From assembly GCA_043228905.1 (NCBI GenBank), contig JBHGNT010000003.1:8556001-8620000 (forward strand): DNA of 64,000 bases. Reading direction: 5' to 3'. The stretch's first letter is position 1; every line of letters begins with the position of its first letter. The notes below the pieces were generated by a model that saw only the letters and a program-made list of their open reading frames with translations, was not told the DNA's origin and made no database searches. This DNA is from Azolla caroliniana (lineage: Eukaryota > Plantae > Polypodiophyta). A program made the position numbers and the translations under genes. This document shows positions 4,530 through 60,666 of the stretch, one piece after another.

Positions 4530-5236
4530 TACTCCCCCTCTTTAAAACATTGCACTCTTGCAATGGAAAGTTAGGGAAGTTAGTTCTGAGAGTACTTTCG
4601 CGTTCCCATGTGGCATCTTTTATTGATTTATCCATCCATTTTATTTTAAATTCTTGGATTTCTTTAGTACGTAATTTTTTTGTTTTAACATCGAGAATTC
4701 TTTCTAGTACATGTGGTTTAGAAGATACATCTTCAGAAGTAACCAGAGTTTCAGTTGTGATTGTATTGTCGCTAGAACCTAGAAGTTCTTTTAAACGACT
4801 CACATGAAAGACTGGATGAATTCCAACACCATCGGGAAGAGCGAGACGATAGGCTGATGACCCAATACGTTTGAGGACTGTAAAAGGTCCACAAAACCGT
4901 GGGGCTAACTTAGCGCACTTACTTGTAGACAATGTCTTAGAATTGTGAGGTACACGTAAAAATACCTTATGTCCAGGGTTGAATACACAAGGTTGCCTAT
5001 GATGATTGACATAAAAACGCGCTCTATCTTGAGCTGTTTTTATATTATCTTGTGCAATATGCAACATATCTTGCATATCCTGAAGAAAGTTTTGTGTACT
5101 TCGCAACTCATCATGATGTATATTAACATCAATCGGGGCTCGTGGTTGAAAACCATACATCAACATAAAAGGACTATATCCCGTCGACGTATGCTTGGAG
5201 CTATTATAAGCAAACTCCAAAATTGGGAGATAACGT
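4516..5236 (-). pseudogene. Element A integrase C-terminus with GPY/F motif and chromodomain
   Basis: YLPILEFAYNS..TGYSPF, KLAPRFCGPF..IHPVFHVSRLK, then ERILDVKTKKLRTKEIQEFKIKWMDKSIKDATWE. The upstream part of ORF 4516..5718 is LTR B read-through. Confidence 0.9.
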
Positions 5237-5881
5237 TGTCGTGAAGAAAACTGTCCCCAGGCGCAAACCGTGTATAGCGTGTGTGAACCGGCCCTTACAG
5301 GTGGACACGCCCCTTGTTGTATAGTAGATAGGTAGGCACAAAAGTCGAATCCTAGGTAGCAATATTCTATAGAGAGAATTAATGTGATGTAAACGGGTGA
5401 AACGGCCTCCCTCCTTGAGCTATAAAAGAGAGGGAGACGGGGAGAGAATGTATTGTGCGCTAGAGGGGACGAAGTGCTGTCGGACTGGGACCGAGCTCTT
5501 CTTCTTTGTCGTTCTCCATAGTTTTCTTTTGCGCAGGTTCTCAGGAGGCTGATTCTGCTCCGTGGAACGCCCGTGTGCTTCCGACAGAATCTCCATCTTG
5601 CTCCCCTGTGTGCGTGGGTGATCAGGCGTCGGCATCCATCTCGCCGACCTGATCGGCTGTAACCGTTCGAGTCGTCTGCAAACATACATATTTTATTTAC
5701 ATACGCTAGTGTTCTCAACTCGTGTCTCCTGTGTTGTTGGGCCGCGTTCCCGTGCGCTTCTTTGTCTATACGTGTGTGAGCGTCTCTCTCTTTCCTCCCC
5801 TTTTCTCACCTATTCCTCGGTCCAAGACCCCAGTGGTCCCGCCTTGTTCTCCACGCACGCGCGTAATAACGCGACATCTTT

Positions 5882-5898
5882 TGGTGAACCCGATGTGA
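5882..5898 (+). promoter_or_regulatory. Primer binding site complementary to the tRNA-Trp 3' end
   Basis: TGGTGAACCCGATGTGA, one mismatch to the reverse complement of the plant tRNA-Trp end TCACGTCGGGTTCACCA (recalled sequence); perfect copies in C and F. Confidence 0.85.
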
Positions 5899-5920
5899 AT
5901 AGGCGGCAGAGGAGTAGAAG

Positions 5921-8037
5921 ATGAGGGGGTCGGACCTCGTAGAAGCCATGGCTTCGGCTGTGGACCATATAGTGAGTGCGCGCGAAGGCACCGACGCCCT
6001 TGATAGGGCTATCGAGGCGGTTGTCGGTACGATCGGCCGGTTTAGTGGGAAGGATGCCACGAGCTACTTGGCGTCCTACCGGGCTGAGATGGTAATGAGG
6101 GACATTCCGGAAGAGACCGGATTCCCTCGAGTGGCAATGCTGGGCATCCATACGGAGGTGCTCGAGGTACGGGCCGAGAGCCGGACCTGGGAGGAGTTCG
6201 AAGGTCGGCTCATCGAAAAATACGGGCTTGAAGATGCGCTTCGACTTTCGAAGCGGGACTTCATGGAGTGGGTGGAGACCCCCAACAAAGGAAGGAACGC
6301 GTCGGTGCTCCTCCGGGAGTTTGAGGAACGCTTCGCGCGCCTCTCGATGCTTGACCGAACCGTTTTGGACACAAGCCATGTCCTATTGTTTGTTAAGTCA
6401 GTTGACGAGCGGGATCGGGAGCAGGTAGGCCTCCTATTGGAGACTGATGACGGGCTGACGACCGATTGGGCTGTGGTGAAAAGGGTTTGTGGCCATTTTG
6501 ACAAACGGCGGGAATGGGTTGACAAAGGATCGACAGGGGCGGGCTCTGTCGCAGCAAGGAAGCTCGAGCCAACACCACCAACGTGAAGGGAAGAGACCCG
6601 AGATTAGCTCAAGACCGGATCGGCTTCGACCGGCATGGTCAAGGGCTCGTCCAGGGGAGCAACTCTGGAGGAACTAACGCAGATGGTAAAGGATCTCCAG
6701 ATCGCCCAAGCACGGAGGGACGGTAGCGAACAGGGCCGTGATCGATGACCTCTGGCTGGAAATAGGTGCATGTGGTGTGACGCGGTTGGCCACATCCGGA
6801 AGGACTGCGGGGACTTCGCCGAGGCGATGAGAAGCAACGTGGTGTACTTGTGGAACGGTCGGGTGCACGCCAACGAGACCCGAAGGGCCCTAGACCTAAA
6901 CGTCGGGCGAGGATGTATGAAAAGGCTGATGGAGGAGGCGACGACTCGTCACGCGGAGACCGTCCACTACTCGGCGTCAACTGGTATTCGGGTCGGAGGT
7001 GGCGAGGCCCCGAAGACGAACCAAGCCGGGTTCTGGCCGACGATGCTAGAAGGCCTCGCCGGCGCACGACTAAGGAAAGAAGAGGCGAACCGCGTGGAAA
7101 AACGGGTCCGGGAGGTAATCGGGTGGAGTGACCCGGTGGAAGAAAAGACGAGCTTCGTCGAAGCCGCTTGTCAAAACTACAAGGCTCTGGTGGAGGACAA
7201 GTGGGTAGGGAAAACTGGAGGGGCTGGGCCCTCGCAACGATATGAAACTCGATTCGGGCAAAGGCGGAATGAGGCCAGTGTAACCGGCGCCCAGGATAAT
7301 CCCAAGAGGGGCGGGTACCGGCTGGGCACAGAAATCGAAAGATCCACGGACCTGCGAAAGGTCCTGGAAGAACGAATCCTCGATAGCAAGGTGGAACTGT
7401 CGCTGAGGGAAGTGCTCGGGATCGCCACGAAGGAGTTCCACGACTCCATCGTAGACTTGGTGAAGAGGAAGAGGCTGTTGACGGAGACAGAACCGGAGAA
7501 GCCGGTGGAGGTGCGGATGATGCACATAGAGGACATGGCACGGGAAGAGAGTTGGCGGAGAGCCACTATTTGAGGCCGCACTGGGCCAGAGCGACCACGG
7601 AGACCCCCATGAAGATCGGAGATGTTCATGAACCGGTGGTGGCGTTGGTGGACCACGGTTCAGAAATCAATTTGATGTCCATGGACTTCTACAAGAAGGG
7701 GAAATGGCCGACCAACATGAAGCACGGGTGGAAAATACGGGCGGCGACGCGTGCCACCGAAGAACTGCATGGAGCCTGCCCGAATGTACGAGTAAAGATC
7801 GGCGATGTCGAGATTGACCAGCACTTCTTCGTGTAGGAGACGTCCTCACATTCGGTTATACTAGGAGAACCGTACATCACGACAGCACGGATGGAGACCA
7901 AGGTGCTGGATAATGGCTCGGCCTATGCAAGGGTCAAGAGCCAAGATGGGCGTCACTTGGTCCAGTTCCTGACGGTGAGACCGAACAATGAGCGGAACCG
8001 CGAGACCCTCGGGGGCGAAAGCCGAGAGGATTTTTAG
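5921..8037 (+). pseudogene. Element B ORF1: gag (capsid-like region, CX2CX4HX4C knuckle) plus aspartic protease
   Basis: ORFs 5921..6586, 6770..7573 (C-MW-CDAVGHIRKDC) and 7552..7836 (ALVDHGSEINLM); ends EDF* at 8035-8037. Confidence 0.85.
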
Positions 8038-11000
8038 AGAGGGCTATCAAGGTGTGGGGCCGCGATAGTATGGACACTCCGGGAAAACCCCACAAGTGTA
8101 TGATAGCGAAGAAGACCTGTACTATAAGTAGGAAATTTTGGTTCTCCGACAACGGAGGGTGTACGATAGTCGACGTCGTTGGCCGGAAGAAGAAAAGGGC
8201 GGAGGAGCGACTTCGGGCATGTGGTATCCTCGGCCCTGGAGAGGAAATCAACGGAGCCGTGGAGGCGGTCTCTTTCGACGATACCTTGGGGGAGCTGCGA
8301 GAGGTAGTCGGAGGAGTCCTTAAAGAGGACCGGACGATTCCGGTATGTTCGGAAAGGATGTACGAAGTCATCGCGGACTTCAGTAGAGGGCTCGAGTCGG
8401 ATCAGACGGCCCGGGTGGACATGAGGTACAAGATTGTGGACCGGAAGGTGAGGCCAGTCGCGGCTCCCTTGCCGGAGGGCAGCGAGTTGCGAATAAAGGG
8501 GGTTGCGTCGGACCCGAGTTTACAAAATCTGGCCCGCATAGGACACACGTTCACCGACATAACGCTACGTGAGCTCAAAATCGGTGGGGGCGGCTTCCTA
8601 CTGCTGGTGGAAGAGGACCGGTTTCGGGGAATGCTCGGAAGGCACGGGAAGGCTTTCGCATTCTCACCGGAGGAGATCGGGTGCGTAGACCCGACAGTCG
8701 TAGAACCGATGGTGATATTCACGGTACCGCATGTGCCGTGGAGTCTCAAACCGATTCCAGTACCCAGAGCTCACATCCCGAAGTTGATGGAGCTGTTAAA
8801 GCAGAAGGTTGAGATGGGCATCCTCGAACCGTCGAGTGCCCCATACTCGAATCGGTGGTTTACCGTGCCGAAGAAGGACGGCACGCTGCGCTTTATTCAA
8901 GACCTACAGCCGGTCAACAAGGTGACCATTCGAAACGTAGGAATCGGACCGACAATAGACGAGTTCACGGAGGCCTTCGCCGGAAGGTCGATTTACTCGG
9001 TCGGTGATCTCTACTCGGGGTACGATCAGTTCCAGCTAGCCGTAGAGAGCAGAGACATCACGACAATGCGAACTCCTCTCGGCCTAGTACGGATGTGTAC
9101 CCTACCGCAAGGAGGGACGAACTCGGTGGCTCACATGGTGAACGCAATGAACAAGGTGCTGAGGGATTGTATCCCGGACATCACCGAGCCGTTTTTGGAC
9201 GACGTCCCGATCAAGGGATGCCCGGTGGAGGAAAAGGACGAGACGATCGGACCGGACGGGTGCCGGAAATTCGTGGCGATGCACATCAATGACTGCGAGA
9301 AGGTGCTGCAGAGGTTAGAGGGCGCGAGGCTCACCTTCTCCGGGGGAAAATCGGCCTTCGGGCAATCAGAGATCATGGTCGTCGGACACCTATGCGGGTC
9401 GTACGGGCGGAAACCGTCTCCGGCTAAGGTAGAAGCCATCTCCGCGATGAAGCACGACTGTAGCTCGGTCACAGAGGTTCGGAGGTTCTTGGGAGCATGC
9501 GCGTTCTACCACATTTGGATCCCGCATTACGCCCACGTCGCGGAGCCGTTATACGGGTTGCTGAAAAAGGGGCGAAAATTCGAGTGGAGAGACGAGCATA
9601 CAGAGTCTGTCCGAAAGATGAAGGAAGCACTTGCTGCAGCTCCGGCGCTCCGAAAGGCTGTCTACGGAAAGGACACTCCAATTTACGTAACGGTAGACAC
9701 GAGTCCGACCGGGATCAGATGGGTCGTCAACCAAGAGGACGAGGACGACATGCGTTTCCCGACCCGGTTCGGCGCGAAGGTCCTCAACGAGCGACAACAA
9801 GGATATGCCCAGGTTAAACGCGAGCTCTGGGGTATCGTTTCAGCGGTAAAGGCCGATAAAGACTACCTGATCGGGACAGAGGTAATTATTGAGACAGACT
9901 GCCTGCCAATTCTTGGCATGGTTTCTGGATGCGCGACGTCGGACCTGGCAATGCTCAGGTGGATATAGTAGATCAAGTCCTTGAATCCGGAAATACGACA
10001 CATTTCCGGGAAAGGCAATGCCATGGCCGACATGCTTTCAAGGGCGAGGTTCGCAAATGAGGGCGGCATGGTTTCGGAGGACGAGGAAGTCGGCGTGGAC
10101 TTCTTCGAGGCGGCTTACGTAACAACCGGCAGGGAATGCACTCCAACACTTAACGATTTCGACGAGAGCAAGTACAACGGGGAGTGGCTGCAGATCGGTG
10201 GGTTCCTGAAAACAATGGCGCCGGACGTGGCATGGACAAAGGATGAGGCTAACCGGATTCGAAAGAAAGCGTACCGATTCTTTCTCTAGGACGGGTACAT
10301 ATGGAAGCACCAGAAGAAGAGGAACGACATCCCGCTCCGAGTGGTGGCGAAGAAGGAGGAACAGGAGGATTTGCTGGCGGCATACCATGATAGTCCTTGG
10401 GCTGGACACCGTGGAACGTGGGCCACGTTCGAAAAGCTAAAGGGGAAGTACTGGTGGCCGGGACTGTACCGGGACGTGCATCGGTTCGTGAAGACTTGCG
10501 AAAGCTGTCAGGTGCACTCCATGATCCGACATTGAGACGAGCTTCACCCGACCTACCCTCCGACCGTCCACTTCAAGTGGATGGTGGATTTGGTGACGAT
10601 GCCAATGGGGGTAGGATAGATGCGGTATCTGGTGCTGGCTCGGGAGGATCTAACGAACCAGGTTGAAGGCCGAGCCCTGCAGAACAAGACGACTGCAGCC
10701 GTGTTCCGGTTTTTTATTGAGGACGTGGTATGTCGATACGGGTGTGTAGGAAAGATTGTGGCTGACCGTGGTGAGTTGGAGGCAGAAGAGGCCAAAGAGC
10801 TGTTCGACCGGCTGGGAGTCAAACTTTCGCTCACCACAGCGTACAATCCGGAGGTGAACGGAAAGGTAGAGCGCGGACATGGGCCGATTGTCAAAGCGCT
10901 AGTACGGGCGTGCGGAGGCCAAGTCGGGAACTGGCCACGACTGCTACCTTATGCCTTGTGGGCGGACCGGACTACGCACAGTTCGGTAACCGGGTTCATG

Positions 11001-11522
11001 CCGGCAGAGCTTATGTTCGGACAGAAGCCGATCATGCCAACAGAGCGAACGATCTCCTCGTGGGCCACGGTGGACTGGAGGGATGAGATGAGCCGGGAGG
11101 AACTATTGGCGGCACGGATTCGACAGCTCGAGCGGAGGCCGGAGGTCGTAGAGCGAGCCGCAGAGAAACTTCGGGTAGCGAGGATAAGGAACAAAGCCCG
11201 GTTCGACCGAACACACCGGCTCCGGCCAAGGAAGATCGAGGAAGGCGATTGGGTGCTAGTCTACGACAACAACCTCGACAATAAGCACAGGGCCACGCGG
11301 AAGTTTGCGAGGAGGTGGTTTGGGCCTTACGTAGTAACAGGCGCCAACGACAATGGGACGTACCATCTCGCGGAGCTCGACGGTACGAGAATGGCGATAC
11401 CGGTAGGGGGGAAGAGGATCAAAGCGTTCAAGAAACGACACGACGGCGAGCCAGAGCTAGGAGGCATGGATAGCAACGACAAGCAGCCCGAGGTGGAGGA
11501 CGAACCGGTAAACGAGGAATAA
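8031..11522 (+). pseudogene. Element B ORF2: RT, RNase H and integrase in the -1 frame, with several point stops
   Basis: 8052..9968 (LPQGGTNS..FLDDVPIKG; VTVDTSPTG..KRELWG), 9981..10289, 10341..10535 (HHCC zinc finger), 10620..11522 (DDE core, RWFGPY). Confidence 0.92.
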
Positions 11523-12238
11523 AAGCAAGGACCGGTTTTCTCCAGTAGGAACCCAATTTTGGCGCATACCGGTGGATGCGCGGTTAGGTGGGGGCGGATG
11601 TCGTGAAGAAAACCGTCCCCAGGCGCAAACCGTGTATAGCGTGTGTGAACCGGCCCTTACAGGTGGACACGCCCCTTGTTGTATAGTAGATAGGTAGGCA
11701 CAAAAGTCGAATCCTAGGTAGCAATATTCTATAGAGAGAATTAATGTGATGTAAACGGGTGAAACGGCCTCCCTCCTTGAGCTATAAAAGAGAGGGAGAC
11801 GGGGAGAGAATGTATCGCGCGCTAGAGGGGACGAAGTGCTGTCGGACTGGGACCGAGCTCTTCTTCTCTGTCGTTCTCCATAGTTTTCTTTTGCGCAGGT
11901 TCTCAGGAGACTGATTCTGCTCCGTGGAACGCCAGTGTGCTTCCGGCAGAATCTCCATCTTGCTCCCCTGTGTGCGTGGGTGATCAGGCGTCAGCATCCA
12001 TCTCGCCGACCTGATCGGCTGTAACCGTTCGAGTCGTCTGCAAACATACATATTTTATTTACATATGCTAGTGTTCTCAACTCGTGTCTCCTGTGTTGTT
12101 GGGCCGCGTTCCCGTGCGCTTCTTTGTCTATACGTGTGTGAGCGTCTCTCTCTTTCCTCCCCTTTTCTCACCTATTCCTCGGTCCAAGACCCCAGTGGTC
12201 CCGCCTTGTTTTCCACGCACGCGCGTAATAACGCGACA

Positions 12239-15200
12239 ACGTTCCCATTTTGTTGGTTTTGCACTAACGTATGCTCGAAGCATGTCCTCAATAATTTGAT
12301 TTACTCGCTCTGTCTGTCCATCGGATTGAGGATGATCCGTGGAGCTCATGCTCAACGTAGTTTCTAACTTCTTAAAGACTTGCGTCCAAAAGGCACTAGT
12401 AAATTTTGGATGTCGATCACTCACGATATCCATCGGTAACCCATAAAAACGAAATAACTCGTCAACGAATTGGTAAGCCAATTCAGGAGCTCTTACCGTG
12501 GTTTTAGTGGCAATAAATCTGGCCATTTTAGTTAATCGACCAACCACAACCCAGATGGCATCATGGCCTTTTTGGGTGCGTGGAAGGCTAACAATAAAAT
12601 CCATGGATATACTTTCCCACTTATTATTGGGAATGTCCAAGGGATGTAAAAGTCATGCGGCTTTAAGTTGCTCGGCTTTGTTAACCTGACATTGGTGACA
12701 TTTAGTCACATAACTATGTATGTTAGGGCGCATCTTAGGCCAATAGAATTGAGTGGAGATTAGAACGAGTGTACGATGTATTCCAGGGTGCCATGATGAG
12801 GGTGCATCATGGCATTAAAAAAGAATCCTCTTTTTGACCTCGGGTAAATCTGGAACACAAACCTTCCCATTACGGTAGAGCAGACCGTGAGCAATGTGGA
12901 AGTATTCCTTCGAGGATGTGGTGGTGTCTGTTCCAGACTCAACTCTTGCCCAGTATTTTGCGAAATAACTATCATTAGGATACTTCCCTCGAAGGTGATT
13001 ATAAAGATCTGATGATATTTCAATGAAGCTAAGCATGTTAACTTCACGGATGCGACTTAGTGCATCAGCGACAGTGTTCATGGAACCTCTACGATATCGT
13101 ATGGAAAAATCAAAGTCCTGGATGAGATCACCCCATCGTGCCTTACGACCTTTCAGGTCTTGTTGGTCACAAAAATATTTCAAGGACTCGTGGTCCATAG
13201 TTACCACAAAGCGATTTCCATAAAGATAATGGCGCCATGTTTTAAGCGCATGTATAACTGCAAATAATTCCTTTTCTTGAACGGTATACCGACATTGAGC
13301 AGAATCAAGTTTCTTACTCTTGAATGCTATTGGTTTACCATCTTGATATAAGACAACACCTATAGCATAATCACTTGCATCGGTTTCAACCTCAAAAGGT
13401 TTTGAAGGGTCGGGTAAAAGAAGTGAAGGAGCCTTGCAAACCGGGTCCTTGAGTTCCTTAAAGGCGAGGTCTAGTGTAGCATTCCACACAATAGGTTTTG
13501 TAGACTTACGCGTTTGACCTTTTAGAAGACCAGTAAACGACGTCGTCAATTGGGAGTAATTACGAAGGGATTTTCGCAAGAACCTGACAAAACCAAGGAA
13601 TGATCGAACTTCTCGAATGTTCCGAAGAGTGGGCCAAAGCTTGATTTTCTCGATGCGAGAAGGATCAATTTCAACTCCTCGTTCGGTTATGAGATGTCCA
13701 AGATAAGTAATTAATTTCTTGAAGAACTCACATTTTGAGATCTTCCCGTAAAACTGTTTGTCATGCAATGTTTGTAAAACAAAGTGGACATGTTTAGCAT
13801 GTTCTTGTAATGTACGACTATAAACTAAAATATCATCCAAGAAAATAACGACAAATTTTCCAAGTTGTTCTCGGAAAATGTCATTCATTTCTTGTTGAAA
13901 TGTAGCCAGAGCATTGTTCAAACCAAAAGGCATAACCAAAAACTCATAATAGCCATAACGCGTACGAAATGTTGTTTTAGGAACATCGTCCTCAATTATA
14001 CGAATTTGATGGTAGCTAGTACGGAGATCAAGTTTCGTAAAATACTGAGCTCCCTAGAGACGGTCAATTAGATCGTCAGCCCGGGGCAGTGGATACGAAT
14101 TCTTGATCGTCACTTTATTCAAGTGTCGGTAATTAATACACATACGCCATGTGCCCTCTTTCTTTTTAACCAAGAGAACTGGTGCACCCCATGGAGATTT
14201 ACTATAACGTATATAACCCATTCGTAAATAGTCCTTGAGTTGCTTAGATACCTAATCCTCTTCGAATCGACTTAAGTGATAAGGAGGTATACTTATTGGT
14301 GCAACACCTGGTACAATATCTATACGATGGTCTATATTACGTTTAGGAGGTAAACCATCTGGTAGTTCACTCGGAAAAACATCACGAAAATCATTTAAGA
14401 TTTCATCAAGTTGTTGTTCAAAATATGTTAATTGAACTGAGACATTATCGACATTGTAAATGTGAATGTCCGGATCAAGTACACAATAGAATAGAGTAGA
14501 ACAAGACAACTTGGATATTGATGGACACGAGGAAACAATCGAGAGGGATTGTTTTTTGACACATTGAATAAAATGAGTACAGTCGTTTAGTACAAATGTA
14601 ATTGAATGATGAACCCAATCAATAAATAAAGAAGAGTTTTTATTATAAAACCAGGGATAACCCAATATTACATCGGTGGTACAAATATTCATTACATTGA
14701 ACTCTACTTCCTCTATATAAGTATCAATAGAAATTCCTAATGAATGAATCACCCCGTTGATGTATTGTACTCTTCCATTAGCCAAGTGCACCGTGTAGGT
14801 GTGATAACTTACGGTGGGTTGGATTCCCCATATCTGAACCAAATGATCATTGACAAAGTTGTGTGAGCTTCCTGAATCAAATAAAATTTGTACGGGAGAT
14901 CCATTGATATACCCGTTTGCACACAGTAAATCATTGGGACCCAATACATAGTGAGGGAAAAAACATTGACAATTACTTAAATGATGTGTATAGACCTGAA
15001 GGACATTAGGAATCTGACCTTTATGGTCTGCAGCTTTAGCTTTGTTGTCGTGCTCTTTTCGTTGGAGCTTTCAACATTGTTCTTTTGTATGACCCTTCTT
15101 TTTGCAGAATACGCAAAAAAGGATGTTGTCGCTTACAATTGCAATCCATGAATTCGTTGGGTGTCTTGCGTTTCCCAACGAATTGCGACTGCTTAGTCCC

Positions 15201-15954
15201 GGGCGCTTCGTTGGGTTTGTTGTGGTCCTTCTTCGAAGTGCGTTGATAGTGAAGAACTATTTCAACGGCCTCTTCGAAGGATTTTGGATCCTTATCGTGC
15301 ACTATCCAATGATAGTCCGAATTGGGGATGCCATTGACAAAACAAGCTATTAACCAGTTGTCCCCTTCTAGACCTGATTTTTGGATTTGGGTTCTAGCAT
15401 GGTGGACATAGTCTTCTACAAAGGAAAATTTCTGACTAGAGAGGCTCATTAAAGCTTGTGCTGCCTCGGTTCTAGAGGGAGGTTGCAGAAATTGGCCCTT
15501 GAAAACTATGACAAAATCTGTCCAGGTATCAGGCAATTTCCCCAAAGTACGGAGCCCACGCCACCAGGCGGCAGCCTTACCCCCTAGTTCTCGGCCGACA
15601 TATGCAATCTTCGTACTATTTGGCATGGGATAGAGCTCAAAATGAGACTCCCATCGGCCCAACCACGTGCAGATTGCTTCTTCGGTTCTTTCCTTTTTTT
15701 CTCTCGTAAATGGCTTAACGATAAACGATGGCTCACCCTGTCACTCATCAGGTCTATTAGTCTTACGTTGTAAACTAATGACACGTGCCTTGAGAGCACT
15801 TTGAGATTACCAAAGTTCGGTCATTTGTTGAGCGGTGAAACTAAGGTATTGGGTTATTTGCGAAAAATACATCTCAATGGACATTTGTCCAGGAGGATTC
15901 CCTTGAGTTCCTTCCGCTTGAGCAGATGACATCGGGTCGTTATTTTGAGCCATT
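12239..15954 (-). pseudogene. Element A gag-pol (gag, aspartic protease, RT, RNase H, integrase N-part) with stops and frameshifts
   Basis: ORFs 15036..15662 (gag-like), 14252..14944 (ILFDSGSSHNF), 12815..13939 (MPFGL..FLDDILVYS; ETDASDYAIG..EKELFAV), 12128..12640 (WESISMDFI..DGQTERVNQ). Confidence 0.92.
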
Positions 15955-17145
15955 AAATGATTATTTCTGGAAAAGAAATAGGATAAGGTCAAAGAGATAG
16001 TCATAACATCATGTCGTGATGTAAACATATCATGGGCGAACATTAATTGATATCATTATCTCATGTCAATACCCCTCTAGACGTATGAGATGAGGTTCAA
16101 GATCAGGTTACTATGGTAACACAAAGGTGTTTTAAAAAACATGGGGGTGACAAATAAATGTCTTTATCTGATCTCTATATCGATTTTTTTCATGGTGGCT
16201 CCCCGAGGCTCAACCATGTATGTTCGCGTCATGAATAGTTTATACACGAAAAAAATGTTAACAATAAACTATGTTTCTGTGCCCACATATGTGGTTTCGG
16301 CTCTTTAAGTCCTATTACGAGGACCCCGAAGTGCACTTAGACCTTAAGTCTAAACATGTGTTATAGTCATATATGTATCAACGATGTTGTATGGTCTTGG
16401 TTATATTTGAACTGGAGACCTCGAGAACAAATGCATTAAACACTTGAGCCAACCAAGTAGGTTGCTCTTCTTGAATGTTTAATGTTTCATGCGTATAAGA
16501 GATATGCAAGGCATGTGCCCATATATGTTTTATTAAAAGAAACATATATGTCAAGAGTCCTTATTTTGCCCTCATTTACTACAACTATGTTGGTACGTTA
16601 CCTAACCTCAATTCTCGTAATTACGATGGCATACGCCAAAGTGCAACCTAATGGTCAAGCCAAATGAGCCCTCTTTTCGTAGTAGGCCCACGTGGCCCAT
16701 CACATGGTTACATCATTACGAATGCCTCTCGTAAGAATGATCTCATGGTGGCATCGTATCCATGTAATGAGGGAAGGATGTTGGATACGTGTGTCATAGG
16801 AGTGACCTCACATGAAGTGGGTCAAGCCCTACGTACTCAACATCATTATGGTTATTGGCGTTTCTTTACGTAACGAAATATCGAAGTCACCAATGGGGAT
16901 TTCAACAATAAAAAATTGTTGAAAAAGGGATGGTGACAACGCTATTCTCACAAAAATGTGAGGACGGCCACCAAGATCCTTTCCCCGAAAAGGAAAACAT
17001 TCGATTTAAAATCATGTAATAACTTAAATACACATATGTATATTATCACATATATACGATCAACTACGTATACACGTGACCACATATGCCTATATAAAAC
17101 AAATCGTTATATTTCATAGCAAAAAATGACGTAATCGAGATAGGT

Positions 17146-17392
17146 AATTGAGGCATATACCTCTACGCACAAGAGACATCCAAAAATAAGGGTTAATCGT
17201 AATACGCAATTGAGGTATTGACCTCTTATGCATATGAGACTAAACACATATCATTTACAACGAATCGAGGTATTGACCTCATACGCAAACGTAACATATG
17301 TTTGTGAACGTAATACACAATTGAGGTATTAACCTCGTGCGCATAAGACGCTCATCACATATTCAATATACGTCAAATGAGGTATTGACCTC
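17146..17392. repeat. Five-unit array of palindromic GAGGT-ATTG-ACCTC motifs in the 5' leader of element A
   Basis: Cores at ~17146, 17208, 17263, 17319 and 17375; period 55-62 bp. Confidence 0.85.
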
Positions 17393-17647
17393 GTGCACAT
17401 ATGTAAATGTTTTATATAACCAATTAATTACCACTACAACATCATTGAATCTATAAAAAAAATTACATATTAACCATACACATGATTAACTTGGGAGAAG
17501 AAAGAATAGAAAAAACAAGAAAGATTACCGAAGTTCTTTTGTTGATCGTTGTTTGGATCAAGGCCGACCGCACATCGATCCATCACCATCAATCAAGAAC
17601 ACAAAACACAACAAAAGAAACATTAGAAAATGAGCTCTGATACCAAC

Positions 17648-18110
17648 TGTAAGAGACATAGACTAATGTAAGCATTATATAAGGATAGAATATAGATGAA
17701 TAGATAGATCTAGAAAGGAGAGAGAGAAAGAAGGGTGTCGATCCACCTGACCACCCCCGAGCGAAGGGATCGAGACGGACTCGAGCCTCGATCGGCGTCC
17801 CATACCACTGCTGTGGCGTCGAGTCATACCTGGTGCTAGCGTACTCGCTACAAGAGTTGACCCACCACAAGACAAAGTCTCGACGTAGTCAACAAGATGA
17901 TGAAATGAGGGTAGCTAGGCCTCTTATTTATAGCAATACCCAAGGCCCCCAGGCAAGTTCACACTTGGCCTAATGGGTTGTCTCAATCTTGAGGATTAAA
18001 AGTAATCCTCCCCTTCTTTACACTCTCGTTTAACCCTCACACTTATCCACGTGTATAGAATACTACAGTAAATTTTGACCACGAGATATTAGATGGTCAT
18101 GCCCGTAACA
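17648..18110 (-). repeat. 5' LTR of element A
   Basis: Adjacent to the iMet PBS; followed by TSD ACAAG. Confidence 0.95.
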
Positions 18111-47700: not shown

Positions 47701-49190
47701 GAACTACACACAATTCAATGACAGGGTATATGCCGACAAAGCTTATGTATGGACAGAAGCTGGTAATGCCCATCGAAAGGATGATCACCTCATGGGTGGT
47801 GATACCATGGGAGAATGAGATGAGCCGAGAAGAATTATTAGCGGCACGGATAAGGCAGCTTGAAAGAAGGCCTGAAGATTTAGAAAATGCGTGAATGATA
47901 ATGGAGGTAGCCCGAGTGAAGAACAAGATTCGGTTCAAGAGGACACATCAACTACGTCCCAAGAAGATCGAAGAAGGAGATTGGGTATTGGTCTACGATA
48001 GCAGCCTTGACAGTCAACTCAGGACAACAAGAAAGTTCGCAAGAAGATGGTTCAGACCGTATGTGGTGACTAGTGCCAATGACAATGCCACATACCACCT
48101 TGTGGAGCTAGATGGATCAAGGTTGTCCATACCCATTGCGGGAAAAAGAGTAAAGATTTTCAAGAAAAGACAAGACGAGAATTCTGACCTCGATCACCTC
48201 GACGATGAAGGTAGTAGGATTGAACCGACAGACTTGAGTTATGTGAACGAGCACATGGAGGAATTTGATTAATCACCGTAGCTGAAATCTCACACTCTCT
48301 CTTCTTGGCACATTGTCGTGCCTTTCGGCGCCAGATCGTTGCGTGAGTCGGGTGGGAACCACTGAGGTTTTGGACTAGGAGAAAAAGAATTTGAGACAAG
48401 TTTAGTTATGAATAGATTATAAGAAAGAGATATAGAAATTTCGTGAATCTCACGAGTGTATTGTATTCGATTAATCAATATTTAGATAAGAATATGTATT
48501 TAGATTGAAAGAAAGAGATTAAAAAGAACTTGTGAATCCCACAAGTATAGATTATGTCGTGAATCCCACGAATATATTTTATTAATTGGTCAATCCTCCA
48601 AAAATAATCAACCCCTATTACATTGTGCTCCTCATCCTTATATAGTGATAAGAGAGTCTTAACAATCCATACTTTTTCTATAGATAGACTATATTCTTTA
48701 TCTAAAGTGATCATGCTTTTTCTAACTTGTGCGTTATTATTATTATTATTATCGACTATAGCGTTCATGCACGCTAGATGTGCATGCGTAACTTTTTCTT
48801 TTTTTTATGCGTTTTTCTTTCAACTAAAGTTTATCCTAGGTGAACTTACATTTGTATGTGGGACATCTACTTTTTAATACTAATGAAATGGTAAGGTTTC
48901 ACATTATTAACATGGAGGTAAAAGGTTCGAATATTGCCCTATGCATGTAATATATATTTTTATACTTTCTTCTATTTACAAATATGTCTCTTCATCCGGT
49001 GAGAAACTCTCACCGGCCTTCTTCATCCGGTTCTCACCGGGTCCTCCTTACCAGTTCCTCCTTACCGGTTTCTCCTTGCCGATTCCTCCTTGATCCGATT
49101 CCTTCCGGTTATCCTTACCGGGTCCTCCTTACTGGTTCCTCCTTGCCGATTCCTCTTTCATCCGATTCCTTCCGGTTACCCTTTTCATGT

Positions 49191-52100
49191 TGTCGCGTTA
49201 TTACGCGCGTGTGTGTAGAAAGGTGGGACCACGGGGGTCCTGGACTAGCGAGTGACAGAGCGCAGGAAGTCGTGCTTCACCCTTTTCGGGGCACCCCAGG
49301 AGCACACTAGAAGCAACCGAACGAGAGAGAGAAAGAGAGGGAGACAGAGAGGGAGCGCGTGCTTGACACCGACTCATGCATACACACGCACACACCGACT
49401 CGACTCACGCCCTTATGTGCAGGAACGCAGGAAAGGGGAAGTACCCAACACCAACAGAGACACGAGTATACACAGACAGACGCAAAAGTATGTATTACAA
49501 GGGAAAGAATACAACCCCGGCTTCGAGCCGGACCAAGCTAGGGTAGGTTACAACAGTAGTCTGCAGCCAAGGCGCCGTCCGGGGAGCTCTCGGGCTCGTC
49601 ACGCAGAGCGGGGTCTTGCATAGGAGACCGAGCGGGAACAACCCTCCACAGTCCACCCACACCGTGAAGAAGAGGAAGAAGAAGTAGAAGAACTAACCCT
49701 AAATCTAACGGTATACCCTCTAACAAAAAATGGGCAACCCCTCTACAAGGGACCATCCCTTCCTTTTATAGAACAAGGAGAGGGATGCGTTACAATGTGG
49801 GTTAAATCCTGATTTACATGGGATTCTTCGTCCCGACTTGACTCTTATTATTCACACAATTACATGAGGGAGAGTGCACATGGTGCACCCCGCCGATGTA
49901 GCCAATATTTCCCGGTTTCCGCCTCTGGACGAAATTCTTCACGACATTCGCCCCCATCTAACAACACGTCCACCACTATGTGCCAAATCTGGTGAAGGGT
50001 GAGAGATTTCGGCCGGTGAGAAACCGGTCTTCCGTAATCCGCACCCCGGCTCGCTGCCGGTTTGAACCATCAGCTTCGGTTCTACCTTCGCGCTTACCTC
50101 CCCGTAGGCTCGTTTGACTCGTCGATGGGTCCTTCGCCGCGATCTCTGTAGTACGCGTACTTCCGCTGGCCCTTGTTCGGCCGTATGCACGCTCCGTTCT
50201 CCGCCGTATGCTCGATGTCCTCCACTTGAAGAACGCCCATAGTGGCCCGCTTGGCCTCCGTCGACCATTCGTGTTGTCCTGATTGCCTTCCCATGTTGCT
50301 TCGCGTTGCCTTCGTCCTCTCGCCGCCACCTTCCTTCTCCATGGTCTTACGTCGCTGCGTCGGCTCGAACCGCCATGGTCTCCGGAACGGTGTGGAGGAT
50401 CTTTTTCTGGCCTTCTACGCGCTACCTCCGAACTGCGCAACCCATCTTCGCACTCGCCTTTCCACTCCGGCACCTCCGTGTGCCGCATACCCTCGTCCGT
50501 TGTTTAGCACTGCCTGTGCCGTACTCCGATTCATTGCACGCCTTGTCGGCCCCTTTCTTGGCTAGATCGTGCACCGCCGCTCACCCGCATACCAGTGTCC
50601 TCCGCATCCGAGGAACACCCCGTAGTAGCTCGCTTGGCCCTTCCCGTCTTCGTGCTGCTGCAACAGGTCCTGAGTTTTCCGCTTGCTGTCGTCCCCTCGC
50701 CCCCACCAGCTTGTCACCCCGGGCTTGCCGTGTCAGTCTTCGCTACCTCGACGGAGCTATCGAGATCTACGAAGCAAGTGTGGAGGATCCTCCTCTGGCC
50801 TCTCTTGCCATCCCCTAACTCCGACCCTGTGCAATCCACTAGGCACCCGTCACCTCGTTCCCGGCACCTCCCTTGTGCCGTCTTCTGCTTCCTTTGTTCG
50901 GCACCACCCGTGCCGAACACCGTCCAATAGTCACGCTTCGATCCGGCCCACGATGGCCACTTGCGAGACTCTTGTTCCGTCCCAGGTGTGCCTTTTCGGC
51001 CCGACACACCTCCCCGGGTTTGCCCTACCGGCTCCTTCCGCTACCGTAACCGGCCGGTAAGGGCTCCACACTTCGTTCGTCCTGTCTTACCGACCTTTGT
51101 CGATGCCAGGTCCCGTCCCTTGCCGCCACCTTCCTTCTCCCTCGGTCTTACGTTGCCACGTCGGTCGAACAACCGTGGTCTCCGGAACGGTGTGAAGATC
51201 CCATAGGACCGGTCTTCGTTTCGTTGCTTGCCGAAATTCAGGGTGTCTTTGTTGGAGTCCCTCCCGGATTCTCCTCGTGTCTTCTGCGTAGCCGCCACCA
51301 ACCTCTCTCGGTCTCATGTTGCCACGTTGGCCGACCAGTCGGAGTCTCTGGTTTGGTGTGGGGATCCCGTAGGACCGGACTTCCTTACGCCCACTCACCT
51401 TGCCGGAAGGTTTGAGATGGTCCGTAGCCGCCTTGCAGGCCTGATACCTTCTTTCTCTACTTCCGTCGTCCGATCACGTTCACCTGCCGCCACCTATCTT
51501 CCCTATAGGACTCACGCCGGCACTCGGGCCGACCGCTGGATCGGTGTGAGGATCTTCATGGGACCTTGGTTTGCCCGCCCTTGTCCCCCCGCCACCACCG
51601 TCAATATCTTGGTCTTACGCCGACCGCGCTGCTGACTGCCGAAGTCTCTAGATCCAGTGTGAAGGATCCTCCTTGGGCTCCTCGTATCCTTGACCCTTAT
51701 CCCGGGTCTTCCTTCTTTTGCAAGTCGAGAGGGTGGCTTGCTCCACACCCTCTCCCGTGGTACCGACGTACCGTGTTCCCGGCCTCTTCATAGGCCTGCT
51801 CTCTTCCTCCCTCCCGCAATGGTTATCTGGGAGTCCACTCCGCCCGGTTCTCGTCCGGGTCCGTTCGTCATTCTCCGGATTGCCGGGTCCCGTTTTCCTG
51901 TCGCCACCGACCTCTCCTATAGGACTCACGCTGGTACTCGGGCCGACCGCCGGATTGGTGTGAAGATCTCATGGGACCGGTCTTTGTTCTCCTCTTCATC
52001 CCCGTACTTCTCTGTAACTTGTCGCCACTCTCCTTGTTGCGTTCCCGCCTCCATCTTCCATCTCTTTCGGTCTTACGTTGCCCCGTTGACCGAACAGCCG

Positions 52101-54637
52101 TAGTCTCCGGATAGGATGTGGCGTAACCGATTTCGCAACGTCTTTTGGCAACTCGTCCGGGCCACCGCCCCTTTTAGTGGTGTCGGTGGATAGCATCTGC
52201 TCTGTGATCAATCAAGCCCCGCCTGAGCTTGATTCTCCAATGTCCGGAGTTTCGGCTCCGATGCCGATCTTGCCAGACTCGTTCCGAACCTCTGATCACC
52301 CTCCTTCCAATTCCCGACCTTCGCCCGCTCGGTCTTTCTCCCCATGTAAAATAGGGCGGCTCGCCCCACACCCTCTCCCGTATCGGCACCTTTATGCCGA
52401 ATCCGGCCCCGATCGAACAATCCACGACCGGATTATGCTCCACCCGTATCAGAGCGTCACACGTTTCGGTCCCCGGTCGGGTTGTCCCTTGGTCTCTTCG
52501 TCGACCTTTTCGCGGGCCTTCTCCCATCCATCTTCGATGGCATCGTGCCAGGACTCCTTGATACCGTCATCCATCTCCGCAGTCTCACTTGGGCATAAGG
52601 GCCCGAATGCCGAGTTCTCCGGAATCGGGTTCGAGGGCTTTTGTCCGCTCCTTCCCCGTATCGTCTCGCCGGTGATTCTTGGTCTCTCGCAGCCGTCTTC
52701 CTCCTCTTGGGACTTACGTGGGCACTCGGGCCTGACTATCGTCGTCTCGGGAGCAAGTGTGAGAAGACGCAAAGAATCGCCCATCCGTTTTACGCCCTTG
52801 TCCGTAGCCACCGGCTCTTCGTGGTCGGCGGTCGTCTCCTTACCGATCGCGCAAGCCCCGTCTGGGCTTGCTTCTCCAATGACCGAGGTTTCGGGCTGAC
52901 ACGCCTGACACCGCTGGTTCCAACGTTCCGATCCCACGATCGGTATCTCGGCCTCGTCCTTGGCCGTTCTATCTCCGCAAGTTGAGAGGGCGTTTTGTTC
53001 CGCACCCTCTCTTGTGGTACCGTGGTACCGACCTTCCGTCATCGCGTGGGGCAAGTCCGTCTCCTCAGTCTCGGCTTGCGGCCTCGATCTTTCCTCTTCC
53101 TTGAGCATTGCCTCGAGAGCTGCGTATGCCTCCAAAATCCTGGCCCCAACGCCGACCCTTGCCGACTCTCTTTGCCGTTCGGCCTCTTCCCGCTGTGATG
53201 GCATGCCGTCGCGCGCCTTCCTCTTAGCCTTTTCGGCTCGCTCATTGTCTAGACGTTGGCACACCCTTCCAACCTTCGACCAGTCCTCCGAAAGCCCATT
53301 TGCTCTGTCATCATCTTCGAGCTCAATCCCGATGGCCTCCCGTTCCGCTCGGTCAATCGACCTGACGAACAATAGGACTTTGTTCGCCCCCACCAAACCT
53401 TGTTCCCGTTCCCGGAGCCGAGCAAGCCATCGCTCGAACTCCCAAAACGCCTTCATTGTGCCACGGTGGGTCTTTGCCGATGCTACCCACTGGTCGAAGT
53501 CGTGCCGTCCCCGGCTCTTCCGCCGTCCTCCATATGCCTGCAGGGAGCGCCTCTTCAAAGGCCTCCCACGAACTATGAGCTTGCCGGAGCTCCTTCACTT
53601 CCGCGTGTGTACGGACGACGACAACCCAACAGAAGAACTCCAGCCTCAATGCTTCGTCCACGTCTCGCTCCTCCATTTCCGCATTGTAGGCTTCCAAGTA
53701 AGATGGGACTTCATCCCCGTTGAAACGGCCGACTCTTTTGACCACTCGCTCAACCGCTTGTTGCGCTGCTTCTCGCCTCATCACCACTCGTGCCGACTCC
53801 AACACCACTACGGCCACCATCACCGCGAGGTCGTCGTCTTCCGATTCCATCCTCCCTTGCCGCCTTTCACGTCGGGTTCACCAAATATGTCGCGTTGTTA
53901 CGTGCGTGCGTGTAGAAAGGAGGGACCACGGGGGTCCTGGACTAGGGAGTGACGGAGTGCAGGAAGTCGTGCTTCACCCTTTTCGGGGCACCCCAGGAGC
54001 ACACCGGAAGCAACCGAACGAGAGAGAGAAAGACAAGGAGAAAGAGAGGGAGCGCGCGCTTGACACCGACTCACGCACACACACACCGACCCGACTCACG
54101 CCCTTGTGTGCAGGAACGCAGGAAAGGGGAAGCACCCGACACCAACAGAGACACGAGTATACACAGACAGACGCAAAAGTATGTATTACAAGGGAAAGAA
54201 TACAACCCCGGCTTCGAGCCGGACCAAGCTAGGGTAGGTTACAACAGTAGTCTGCAGCCAAGGCGCCGTCCGGGGAGCTCTCGGGCTCGTCACGCAAAGC
54301 AGGGTCTTGCATAGGAGACCGAGCGAGAACAACCCTCCACAGTCCACCCACACCGCGAAGAAGAGGAAGAAGAAGTAGAAGAACTAACCCTAAATCTAAC
54401 GGTATACCCTCTGACACAAAATGGGCAACCCCTCTACAAGGGACCATCCCTTCCTTTTATAGAACAAGGAGAGGGATGTGTTACAATGTGGGATAAATCT
54501 TGATTTACATGGGATTCTTCGTCCCGACTTGACTCTTATTATTCATACAATTATATGAGGGAGAGTGCACATGGTGCACCCCGCCAATGTAGCCAATATT
54601 TCCCGGTTTCCGCCTCTGGACGAAATTCTTCACGACA
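49191..54637 (-). mobile_element. Element F: pol-less tRNA-Trp-primed LTR element with a GC-rich LTR whose U5 end resembles B
   Basis: LTRs 49191-49946 and 53888-54637; TSD ATGT/ACGT; perfect Trp PBS 53867-53883; PPT next to 49947; no PR, RT or INT motifs internally. Confidence 0.93.
49976..53850 (-). pseudogene. Element F Gag-derived long ORF, frameshifted, with an expanded PET-type repeat tail
   Basis: 53353..53850 (VGRFNGDEVPSYLEAYNAEM) and 52449..53558 (VLLFVRSID..GLSEDWSKVGRVC; PETTIVRPECPRKSQEEE); PETTVVRPTWQRKTEGEG in 51087..51398. Confidence 0.75.
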
Positions 54638-55066
54638 ACGTAGTGTACGAAATACACAACGACAACGTACCGGAGGATGTGCGGTTTGGTGGGGGCGGAT
54701 GTCGTGAAGATTTTCGGCAACGGTGTGCAAATTGCATGGAATGTACAAAATCAAGTGTGGTTCTTCACACACAATATGAAACAATAGTAATGAAGATATT
54801 TTTTATATCTTGGTAAGAAAAGATGGATGTCTTCAAGAGCTTCCGAATGCATTTTACTATATGTGAAATGGACAACTTAGTGTCAAGTTATGTGAGTGTA
54901 AAGTTTGAGTGTAAAGTTTGAGAAGAAGAAGAGAAAAACAAAACTGTAAGATATCCCACAATATATAAGCAAAGCTAGAACTTATTACTTTCTATTTATG
55001 AGTGGAGAACAGAATGTTCTTGGGCTAAATTGTGGCTTAATTGCATGTAATGGTTTTGGGTGACCG

Positions 55067-55290
55067 GACGGTGACGGAGCCGCAACCGGAACCGGATGGC
55101 GATGGACGATAACAGAGCTGCAACCGAAACCGGACGGACGACGATGGAGCTAGAACCGAAACTGGACGGACGACGATGGAACCGAAACCGGACGGGGATG
55201 ACGATCGAACTAGGACCAACACCAACATTGGAACTGAACCGGATAGACTGGATCACCATGTCGGATGCGGACCGGATGGACCGGATAGAC
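55067..55290. repeat. Degenerate tandem repeat (gaaccg/gacggacgacgatgga units) in LTR K
   Basis: Repeated accggacggacgacgatgga-like units; a shorter equivalent lies at ~30476-30555 in E. Confidence 0.7.
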
Positions 55291-55858
55291 GGATCGATCA
55301 GATAGGTTGATCGTGACGATTTTGGTGTGAAATGAACAAAATATCTAGACTAAAAAACCTAGTAAAAGTTTGTATACAAAGGGATGCAAGCAAGGTTTGA
55401 ACATTGCACCTCCAAGATAGGAGGCAATAGCCTTACCACTAAGCTAAGTCATTTTCTTAAAAATGTTTTTTCTATCATGCATCACATGTAATCCATATAC
55501 TTTTACTTGATTGAGTGACATGGTTGTCATGCATCACATGTAATCCATGAGCACCAAATGGCAAACATGCATCACATGCATTCCATGCATTGTATGCATG
55601 TCTTGTACCCTTACATGCATCATATGCATGGGAGCATCTATAAAAGAGTGGTTGAAAAATATCAAAGGGGAGCGATGTATTAATCAAGAATTTAATAATA
55701 ATAATAAATTCGTTATCCAATTGATGATATATCTTGTTCTTCAAATCTAAAGTCAAGAGTTCAATCTTAAGCTCTCTCTCCATTTCAATCTTTCTCAATC
55801 TAAAGTCAAGCGTTCTATCTTATCTCAATCTCTCTCTCTTTCAATCTATCTTAAATCC

Positions 55859-58800: not shown

Positions 58801-60666
58801 GGAGAGCATGGCAGAGTCTCCACCACTTGCCGTCTCTTCATCCGACTGGTCCAACCGACTCAGTCGCTCGTTCGGTCCATTCAACCGTAACGATTCCGGA
58901 CTCTCATCTTGAGTCCCTGCATCATCATCCTCTGCCAGGGCTGATTCAGGCTCACTGGCCTGATCTTCCGGCATTGGGTCGGGATCGGAAGTCGGAGTTG
59001 GTACGGAGTACCAGGATGCCGATTCGTCGAACTCGACATCCCGGCTAACTCGGACTTCGTCCGGGGGTTATAGCACTTATACCCCTTTTGCTCTTGAGCA
59101 TAGCCGACTAGGATGCATTTGTCCGATTTTGCATCCAGCTTTCTCCGCTTCTGATCCGGCACATGCACATACGCTATGCTGCCGAATATCCGAAGGTGTC
59201 TTAAGTTCGGCTTGTGCCCGAAATACAGCTCATGAGCTGACACCTTTTCACTGATGCGGTTTTGTATGTAGACGGCCGTCTGGACCGCCTCCGCCCAGTA
59301 GAACCGGGGCATGCTCTTTTTTTTCCAGCATTGCCCTTGCTGCTTCGACGAGTGTCCGGTTCTTCCTTTCGGCCACACCGTTTTGCTCTGGTGTGTATCT
59401 GCAGCTGAACTCTCGCCGAATTCCCTTCTGCTGTAGATAACTAGTGAATTGGCCGGAAAAATATTCCTTTCCGCCATCCGACCGAAGGCATTTGATCTTC
59501 CTCTCCGATTCTCGTTCCACCATCTTCTGGAGGCTCCGGAAACAGTCGAAGACTTCGCTCTTCCGCTCAATGAGGTAGATCCAAGTATGTCGAGTATAGT
59601 CGTCGATGAAGGAGACGAAGTACCGGCTCCCGCCAAGGCTTACACTTTGTGCCGGTCCCCACACATCCGAATGGATGAGATCGAGCTTGTTACGGCTCCG
59701 GTTCCGTTCGGTGGGGAATGGAAGCCGATGTTGCTTCCCAAGTTGGCAGGCTTCACAAATTTCAGCTCTCCGGCCGCTGAACTTTGGCAAACCGAAAACG
59801 ACTTGTTTCGTTTGCAGGTCTTGAAGCCTCCGGTAGTTGACGTGGCCTATCCGCTTGTGCCATAGGTCGATGTCCGACTCGACCTTCTGTCGTTTCGCGA
59901 ACAGAGCGGTGCCAATGTCATTGGTGTTGAGGATAAACATCCTCCCGTCTCTGCGCCCTTGCGCAATGACTTCGCCCTCATCCTCAATGAAGCACCCGAG
60001 GTGTGTAAACCGCACCTACATCCCCTGGTCGACAATCTGACCGACGGACACCAGGTTCTTCGTGATCGTCGGAACGGGTAATACGTTCATCAGCTTCCCT
60101 TTCTGTCCGACGTGGCTTAGAGGGACTTCTCCGACGTGCACGATTGGGTGTGGAGTGTCGTCTCCGGTTTCGACTACTCCTAGCTGATCCGGTTTCTCCA
60201 GAAAGGAAAACCACTCTTTGTGGCTCGTCATGTGGTTCGACGCGCCGGAATCAACATACCACACTTCCTCCGTTTTGGAAGTGTTCTTCTTCATTGAGTT
60301 TGCCTTGTGATTCATCACCAAGGCTGGCCCCTTACCGGCCTTTCCGGTTCCGGATCCTCCTGATCTGTTTGCGTAGTGCGAGTTTTGCCGGCCATCCTTA
60401 CCGGTCTTGCCGGATCTGGATTTCTCTGAATCGGCTCGCTTTCTCCAGCACTCGCTTTCCCTGTGGCCTTTTTTGCCACAGTACCAGCATTCCGTAGCGG
60501 ATTTGTCTTGCCGGCCTCCGGCACCGCCTTGACTCCCCCTGCTTGTGGAAGTTCCGGAACTGCTGTCGGCACACTCATAGTGCCTCCGTTCCTGCTCTTG
60601 CCGGCCGCCTCCATTGCGTGCCGACCCACCTCTTCCACCATGCCCACAGTGTCGATCCATTCCCGT
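55859..60666 (-). mobile_element. Element J: degenerate D-related Ty1/Copia, nested in the K 3' LTR and interrupted in gag by element G
   Basis: 3' LTR 55859-56244; PPT at 56245; ORFs 60016..60660 (CWYCGKKGHRESEC, WYVDSGASNH), 59248..60015, 58132..58974, 57646..58110 and 56833..57252. Confidence 0.92.

What the first reader, a model, noticed from the sequence alone, without database searches (positions are those of the whole stretch)
5233..60666. All Trp-family insertions are centred on CpG, with 4-bp TSDs (MCGK)
Target sites are B ACGT/ACGT, C CCGG/CCGG, C-family solo LTR ACAT/ACGT, F ATGT/ACGT, E outer flank ACGG (29792-29795) and G left flank CCGT (60663-60666). Six of six fit the self-complementary consensus [A/C]CG[G/T]; the two mismatched pairs are the CpG-to-CpA/TpG decay expected from methylation. 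The other elements have 5-bp TSDs without CpG (ACAAG, CACCT, CTTCC, AGAGA). Inference: an integrase with no visible chromodomain has a CpG, possibly methyl-CpG, target preference. That could steer it into other TEs; all six sites lie within TE sequence.
Basis: partly seen in the sequence, partly recalled or inferred. Interest (0 to 1): 0.75.

Follow-up and report, generated by a model that had tools for sequence, protein, structure and literature searches.

The report
Phygy-type retrotransposons inserting at CpG
A family of plant jumping genes with thousands of copies in this genome sits at a CG pair, with a 4-base duplication, in about nine of ten cases, which matches what is already published for the moss Phygy lineage; the integrase likely picks the site by reading DNA sequence, and a role for methylation is untested.

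Summary
All six cited sites read as stated. In the 523-Mb genome, 2067 of 2368 host-side ends of the B subfamily (87%) have CG at the centre of the 4-bp site, against 3.5% background; another 8% are other pyrimidine-purine steps, mostly CA/TG decay. Sister subfamilies agree; copia and chromovirus controls have 5-bp sites with CG at about chance level. Neumann et al. 2019 list this signature for Phygy: 4-bp NCGN sites, tRNA-Trp primer, no chromodomain. MCGK is too narrow (66% of CG sites). The rule is not-T, CG, not-A (1963 of 2067, 95%), the outer-base bias also reported for 4-bp retroviruses. Steering into TEs is not supported: 100 of 122 target flanks are repetitive, against 607 of 800 random CpGs (p=0.17). 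Methyl-CpG reading could not be tested. G's 3' LTR is truncated; the matching flank lies beyond an inverted sister copy. Elements re-insert into each other's duplicated sites (62 cases), close to what the motif predicts.

The parts
5237..12238 (+). Element B: Phygy-type Ty3/gypsy LTR retrotransposon, 640-bp LTRs (98.4% identical), nested in chromovirus A
5233..5236 (+). B left TSD (ACGT); the right copy is at 12239-12242
   Evidence: single copy at the empty site of a sister chromovirus
5882..5899 (+). B primer-binding site; assignment to tRNA-Trp is recalled from the plant tRNA-Trp 3' end, not from a call
10620..11519 (+). B integrase core and SH3-like GPY/F C-terminal module; no chromodomain
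   Evidence: rve, SH3_Tf2-1 only; positive control PF00385 in element A
19014..22985 (-). Element C: short, likely non-autonomous family member, LTRs 99.9% identical, TSD CCGG at 19010-13 and 22986-89, inside a copia-derived stretch
29796..35500 (-). Element E: 5'-truncated family member (inner end approximate); 3' LTR 29796-30959; outer flank ACGG at 29792-95 lies in repetitive DNA
44791..55850 (+).
48314..54664 (-). C-family solo LTR, interrupted by F; TSD ACAT 48310-13 / ACGT 54665-68; inserted next to the PPT of the E-like copy
49191..54637 (-). Element F, LTRs 95.1% identical; TSD ATGT 49187-90 / ACGT 54638-41; inserted in the solo LTR
60667..64000 (+). Element G, left arm of an inverted pair that ends at 67612 beyond the window; flanks CCGT 60663-66 and CCAT 67613-16
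4067..18110 (-). Control: chromovirus A, tRNA-Met-type PBS, chromodomain, 5-bp TSD ACAAG
37328..42867 (-). Control: Ty1/copia element, 5-bp TSD CTTCC

Best explanation
These are tRNA-Trp-primed, chromodomain-less Ty3/gypsy retrotransposons with the Phygy signature, sitting at not-T-CG-not-A sites with 4-bp duplications, and their integrase likely selects that site by reading the target DNA itself. Shown: the motif, the 4-bp length, the decay variants, the absence of a chromodomain or other added domain, and a PFV/Ty3-like integrase fold. Inferred: a 4-bp staggered cut needs a sharp bend at the central step, which favours a pyrimidine-purine step and disfavours T and A at the outer positions, as in 4-bp retroviruses. 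Inferred: base contacts narrow that step to CG; candidates are the conserved Arg and Glu/Asp just after the second catalytic Asp (the PFV Ala188 position) and a basic loop in the C-terminal module. Inferred: nesting in TEs follows passively, because about three quarters of this genome's CpGs lie in repeats; and each new duplicated site is itself a preferred target, which gives back-to-back pairs.
For: Genome counts for subfamily B: 4182 LTR starts, 1814 after the PPT, leaving 2368; CG-centred 2067, any YR 2259, not-T-CG-not-A 1963, MCGK 1357. Background: NCGN 3.5%, and not-T/not-A is 45% of CpGs, in 400 kb from 40 arbitrarily placed stretches. C: 20 of 24 host-side ends CG, 3 CA/TG, 1 other. 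E/F/G-type: 15 of 19 CG, 4 CA/TG. Of 21 B elements paired by script, 15 have perfect 4-bp TSDs, all CG-centred. Neumann 2019 (PMC6317226): Phygy 4 bp (100%) NCGN, tRNA-Trp 81%, no extra domain. Serrao 2015 (PMC4422553, abstract and section 6): central YR, and T at 0 / A at +3 disfavoured, for 4-bp viruses. ZAM integrase binds and nicks a CGCGCg target in vitro (PMC2527525, abstract). Flank GC and CpG o/e match random CpGs (0.96 vs 0.94, p=0.85); repetitive 100 of 122 vs 607 of 800, p=0.17. No chromodomain at E<=1; the model ends in a low-confidence acidic tail and matches PFV and Ty3 intasomes.
Against: Targets lie in the family's own sequence more often than random CpGs do: 30 of 122 vs 126 of 800 (p=0.02; not corrected for clustering, flanks all from one contig). 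Back-to-back pairs number 62 against 15-41 expected. Of 48 ORFs from 19 of the 22 non-repetitive flanks, none has a cellular-gene domain and 3 are retroelement domains (background not scanned). All three allow some regional or chromatin bias. Phygy membership by phylogeny was not shown: no Physcomitrium-labelled hit among 108 and 120 listed proteins, and B elements (6.6-7.3 kb) are shorter than the published range of 7.7-10.0 kb. 4 of 21 paired elements have non-matching flanks; 2 are mis-pairings (the right side reads a PBS) and 2 are unexplained. The residue assignments rest on alignment only.
Confidence: 0.78

Rival explanations
1. The integrase reads or is stimulated by methylated CpG, so DNA methylation itself guides insertion into silent TE-rich DNA without a chromodomain.
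For: Specificity is for CG, not for other YR steps (2067 vs 192). Mild excess of targets inside the family's own sequence and of back-to-back pairs. No gene domain in non-repetitive flanks. At least 103 of 122 flanks are TE or repeat.
Against: The repetitive share and CpG o/e of flanks do not differ from random CpGs; 20% of targets lie in CpG-poor stretches, against 19% of background. No methyl-binding or other added domain was found. TSD decay only shows methylation after insertion. ZAM is a CG-containing target read by an integrase in Drosophila; that flies have little CpG methylation is recalled.
Confidence: 0.12
2. Sequence readout picks the CG locally, and a separate host tether or chromatin preference adds a modest regional bias toward TE islands.
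For: 1.6-fold excess of self-nesting. Observed back-to-back pairs exceed the estimate (62 vs 15-41). Jedlicka 2019 (PMC6911290, passages) reports Phygy inserted into Tcn1 as the commonest repeated nested pair in Physcomitrella.
Against: The overall repeat share is not significantly different. The expected count depends on an insertion number that is a lower bound. Selection against genic insertions and local clustering give the same pattern. The C-terminal tail is poorly conserved.
Confidence: 0.08
3. The CG signal is an artefact of small numbers, of LTR boundaries or of GC-rich surroundings.
For: Six sites only in the window; CpG o/e of the window is about 1.
Against: 2067 of 2368 genome-wide; controls in the same genome have 5-bp sites with CG at about chance level; empty sites confirm the boundaries.
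Confidence: 0.01

Closest known systems
Phygy lineage (non-chromovirus Ty3/gypsy, Physcomitrium patens; Neumann et al. 2019, PMC6317226)
   Same: 4-bp TSD, NCGN target, tRNA-Trp PBS, no chromodomain, no aRH, no extra ORF, coding region filling the internal part.
   Different: B elements are shorter (6.6-7.3 kb vs 7.7-10.0 kb). The motif is resolved here to not-T-CG-not-A, best ACGT, with TCGA avoided. Several subfamilies and short derivatives total about 9,000 or more insertions. Tree placement with reference Phygy sequences was not possible.
TatI (Neumann 2019)
   Same: 4-bp TSD and tRNA-Trp PBS.
   Different: TatI carries an aRH domain, is about 9 kb, and has no NCGN motif listed; no added RNase H domain was found here.
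4-bp retroviral integrases (PFV, MoMLV, PERV, XMRV; Serrao 2015, PMC4422553)
   Same: 4-bp TSD, central YR step, T and A disfavoured at the outer positions; PFV is the best structural match.
   Different: Their YR bias is weak (about 63% above random); here the step is CG in 87% of sites.
ZAM of Drosophila (Faye 2008, PMC2527525)
   Same: LTR retroelement whose integrase itself binds a CG-containing target (abstract).
   Different: Errantivirus lineage; longer CGCGCg consensus plus a second binding site.
Fungal Ylt1-like Ty3/gypsy elements (Novikova 2010, PMC2864245, passages)
   Same: Non-chromoviral; fungal proteins (Smittium, Tilletia) fall in the same large clade at 36-41% identity.
   Different: No sequence labelled Ylt1 was in the tree; their target motif was not found in the passages read.

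Membership tests
Phygy | 4-bp TSD | tested here: met
   15 of 21 paired B elements have perfect 4-bp and none of these a 5-bp repeat; empty sites
Phygy | NCGN target motif | tested here: met
   2067 of 2368; C 20 of 24; E/F/G-type 15 of 19
Phygy | tRNA-Trp PBS | tested here: met
   Same PBS next to the 5' LTR of B, C, F, G and genome copies; its identity as Trp is recalled, not matched to a tRNA gene by a call
Phygy | No chromodomain, no aRH, no extra ORF | tested here: met
   Pfam at E<=1 on three uninterrupted pol ORFs, one gag ORF and B's integrase ORF; model; chromodomain detected in control A
Phygy | Clusters with P. patens Phygy on RT/RH/INT trees (the formal definition) | not testable with these tools
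   REXdb FASTA supplement too large to read; no Physcomitrium-labelled hit. The tree shows a clade with Riccia and Adiantum proteins, apart from chromoviruses
Phygy | Typical length 7.7-10.0 kb (descriptive; the paper calls size of little value for classification) | tested here: not met
   B elements with perfect TSDs are 6.6-7.3 kb
TatI | aRH domain in the polyprotein | tested here: not met
   Only the RT-type RNase H was found
Chromovirus (Tcn1, Galadriel and others) | Chromodomain at the integrase C-terminus and chromovirus RT clade | tested here: not met
Methyl-CpG-guided integrase (hypothetical) | Preference for 5mCpG over CpG | not testable with these tools
   No methylome; indirect proxies show no difference from random CpGs

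The most novel reading that the evidence does not exclude
Phygy-type integrases read 5-methyl-CpG directly at the scissile site, through the conserved Arg/Glu loop after the second catalytic Asp, and so home to methylated TE islands without a chromodomain: a DNA-methylation-guided integrase, whose own duplicated and methylated target sites become hot spots for the next insertion.
Probability: 0.12. Interest if true: 0.75.

Novelty: new member of a known kind. Interest (0 to 1): 0.27.

Why it matters
Strong sequence preference is the exception among plant LTR retrotransposons, and Phygy is the one named exception in Neumann 2019. This genome offers thousands of sites and several subfamilies, which sharpens NCGN to not-T-CG-not-A and links it to the rules known for 4-bp retroviral integrases. 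It makes one open question cheap to test, namely whether the CG must be methylated, using existing methylomes or one in vitro assay. It also explains back-to-back and fold-back element pairs that can confuse annotation. The core phenomenon is not new.

Tried and rejected
MCGK as the consensus: rejected (1357 of 2067). CpG avoidance by 5-bp elements: rejected. Active steering into TEs: not supported by repeat share or CpG o/e; the repeat library was only the roughly 1 Mb fetched here, so both shares are lower bounds. G/G2 as a fold-back assembly artefact: unlikely, the arms are 92-95% identical. Reference Phygy sequences: two protein searches gave none labelled Physcomitrium, and the two large supplements of Neumann 2019 (per-element table and FASTA) could not be read; they may already hold the outer-base bias reported here. 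Fungal test of methylation independence: passages on Ylt1 gave no target motif. Metagenome scan (73 loci): the few element ends with flank also read NCGN, but these are collapsed repeats from unnamed hosts, so they were given little weight. Literature searches for a methyl-CpG-reading integrase or for follow-up on Phygy targeting found none in the held library; GingerRoot (PMC6839031, passages) was not relevant. The earlier-findings tool gave nothing.

Full report
Observation. The window is a stack of nested plant LTR retrotransposons on contig C3 of a 523-Mb assembly. Three empty sites in sister sequences carry a single ACGT, which fixes the duplication at 4 bp and shows that ACAT and ATGT are CpG decay. 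B, C, F and G share one primer-binding site; its assignment to tRNA-Trp is recalled.

Genome-wide test. The 15-base start of the B LTR occurs 4182 times. 1814 of these follow the polypurine tract and are 3' LTRs, leaving 2368 ends that face host DNA (a few will be 3' LTRs with a mutated tract). Of the 2368, 2067 (87%) have CG at the centre of the adjacent 4-mer and 2259 (95%) have any pyrimidine-purine step; in the 100 rows listed there the non-CG steps are all CA or TG. Background NCGN is 3.5% in 400 kb taken from 40 arbitrarily placed 10-kb stretches, so the enrichment is about 25-fold. These are element ends, not independent events: segmental duplicates were not removed. For subfamily C (3105 hits), the first 30 loci gave 24 host-side ends: 20 CG, 3 CA/TG, 1 other. 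For the E/F/G types (7019 hits, control 194), the first 30 loci gave 19 host-side ends: 15 CG, 4 CA/TG. Of 21 B elements paired by script, 15 have perfect CG-centred 4-bp TSDs, 2 differ by CpG decay (LTR identity 97.8 and 95.7%), 2 are mis-pairings and 2 are unexplained. Controls: 16 copia and 7 chromovirus host-side ends are 5-bp sites, and 3 and 1 of them contain CG, about what chance gives.

The motif. MCGK covers 1357 of 2067 CG sites (66%; background 24%). Not-T-CG-not-A covers 1963 of 2067 (95%; background 45%). In 122 CG-centred flanks (all from contig C1, and 40 B stretches were fetched because they were CG-centred), position 1 is A 59, C 21, G 16, T 4% and position 4 mirrors it. ACGT is about six-fold enriched among CpGs, while TCGA, the commonest CpG context in the background, was not seen. 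The base just outside the TSD favours C (43 vs 22%); nothing stands out further away.

What it is. Uninterrupted natural copies have two overlapping ORFs, gag/protease-like with DUF4100 and RT-RH-INT, with no chromodomain and no added RNase H at E<=1; the chromodomain of element A is detected. The integrase model (mean pLDDT 80.7) matches PFV and Ty3 intasomes and ends in a low-confidence acidic tail. Named relatives are from Riccia (mostly 60-66%), Adiantum, Chara, and the fungi Smittium and Tilletia. On a quick RT-RH tree of 66 rows (SH-aLRT only), B and E group with the Riccia and Adiantum proteins, inside a larger clade with Chara and fungi, apart from chromoviruses. Neumann et al. [quoted passage not shown] Jedlicka et al. 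2019 (PMC6911290, passages) also note 4-bp TSDs in Phygy. The finding is therefore the Phygy signature. Formal membership by tree was not testable, and B is shorter than the published range.

How it likely works. Serrao et al. 2015 (PMC4422553; abstract and section 6 read) report for 4-bp viruses a central flexible YR step and avoidance of T at position 0 and A at +3: the same outer-base rule found here. I infer that the 4-bp stagger supplies this shape bias and that base contacts narrow the step to CG. The PFV Ala188 position, a known target contact, aligns to Glu179 of the integrase fragment. It is Glu or Asp in 33 of the first 33 alignment rows (the closer relatives), with Arg177 in 32 of 33; both vary in the 26 distant rows. 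These are candidates only. ZAM integrase binds and nicks a CGCGCg target in vitro (PMC2527525, abstract), a precedent for intrinsic CG readout.

Steering and methylation. All six window sites do lie in TE or repeat sequence, but so does most of the window. Genome-wide, target flanks have the same GC and CpG o/e as random CpGs. They are repetitive in 100 of 122 cases against 607 of 800 (p=0.17). Repeats here are CpG-rich (o/e 0.99 vs 0.56), so a plain CG preference lands mostly in TEs. Results on the other side: self-nesting is 30 of 122 vs 126 of 800 (p=0.02, uncorrected), and no cellular-gene domain was found in 48 ORFs from 19 of the 22 non-repetitive flanks. Selection or clustering explains these as well as targeting does. 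TSD decay shows methylation after insertion only. The methyl-CpG idea stays open at low odds; six literature searches found no test of it in the held library, which lacks most subscription papers.

A consequence of the motif. Each TSD is itself a preferred target. Two family termini separated by exactly 4 bases occur at 62 sites (control 1). Reading the first 50 listed, 40 centres are CG, 6 are CA/TG and 4 are other. From the motif weights and 9,000-15,000 insertions, 15-41 such pairs are expected (about 9,000 is a lower-bound estimate), so little beyond the motif is needed. G is likely a derived case. G and an inverted sister form one 6.9-kb block flanked by CCGT and CCAT in a continuous copia host. 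The central LTR halves match crosswise (100% over 308 bp; 98.3% over 352 bp). The simplest history, inferred, is insertion of the sister into G's right TSD, inversion of the centre between the arms, and loss of the palindromic middle.

Verdict. Real, strong and well supported, but a known property of a known lineage. What is added: confirmation at the scale of thousands of ends, a sharper motif, a link to the 4-bp retroviral rules, and re-insertion into TSDs. Interest 0.27.

Noticed in passing
window 60667-64000 and L001 (to 67616 in extended window coordinates): G and an inverted sister form one fold-back block at a single CCGT/CCAT site, with swapped, truncated central LTR halves.
   Followed up: yes
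G000, 62 sites, e.g. L103-L108: Back-to-back family termini sharing one 4-bp site, often between different subfamilies; 62 observed vs 15-41 expected.
   Followed up: partly
window 19014-22985, 49191-54637, 60667-64000: C, F and G are short derivatives whose internal regions are related to each other (about 66-77%) and gave no Pfam hit in their long ORFs; they keep the target motif, so they likely use an integrase in trans.
   Followed up: partly
L098 and L099 (G000:C1 near 9558136 and 9641353), L019: Several B copies sit in the CpG-rich end of the family's own LTR, two at the same position.
   Followed up: no
L001, extended coordinates 69883-71974: A sister copy of chromovirus A lies just past the window and shows B's empty site.
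   Followed up: yes
window 4067-18110: Chromovirus A has a tRNA-Met-type PBS and 5-bp TSDs and seems rare (10 exact LTR-end hits); its lineage was not determined.
   Followed up: no
L119-L158: The genome is a mosaic of GC-poor, CpG-poor stretches (o/e 0.3-0.6) and GC-rich, CpG-rich stretches (o/e about 1).
   Followed up: partly
P0055: A distant relative (43%) carries PF00628 (PHD finger, name recalled) in its polyprotein, a possible chromatin reader in this clade.
   Followed up: no
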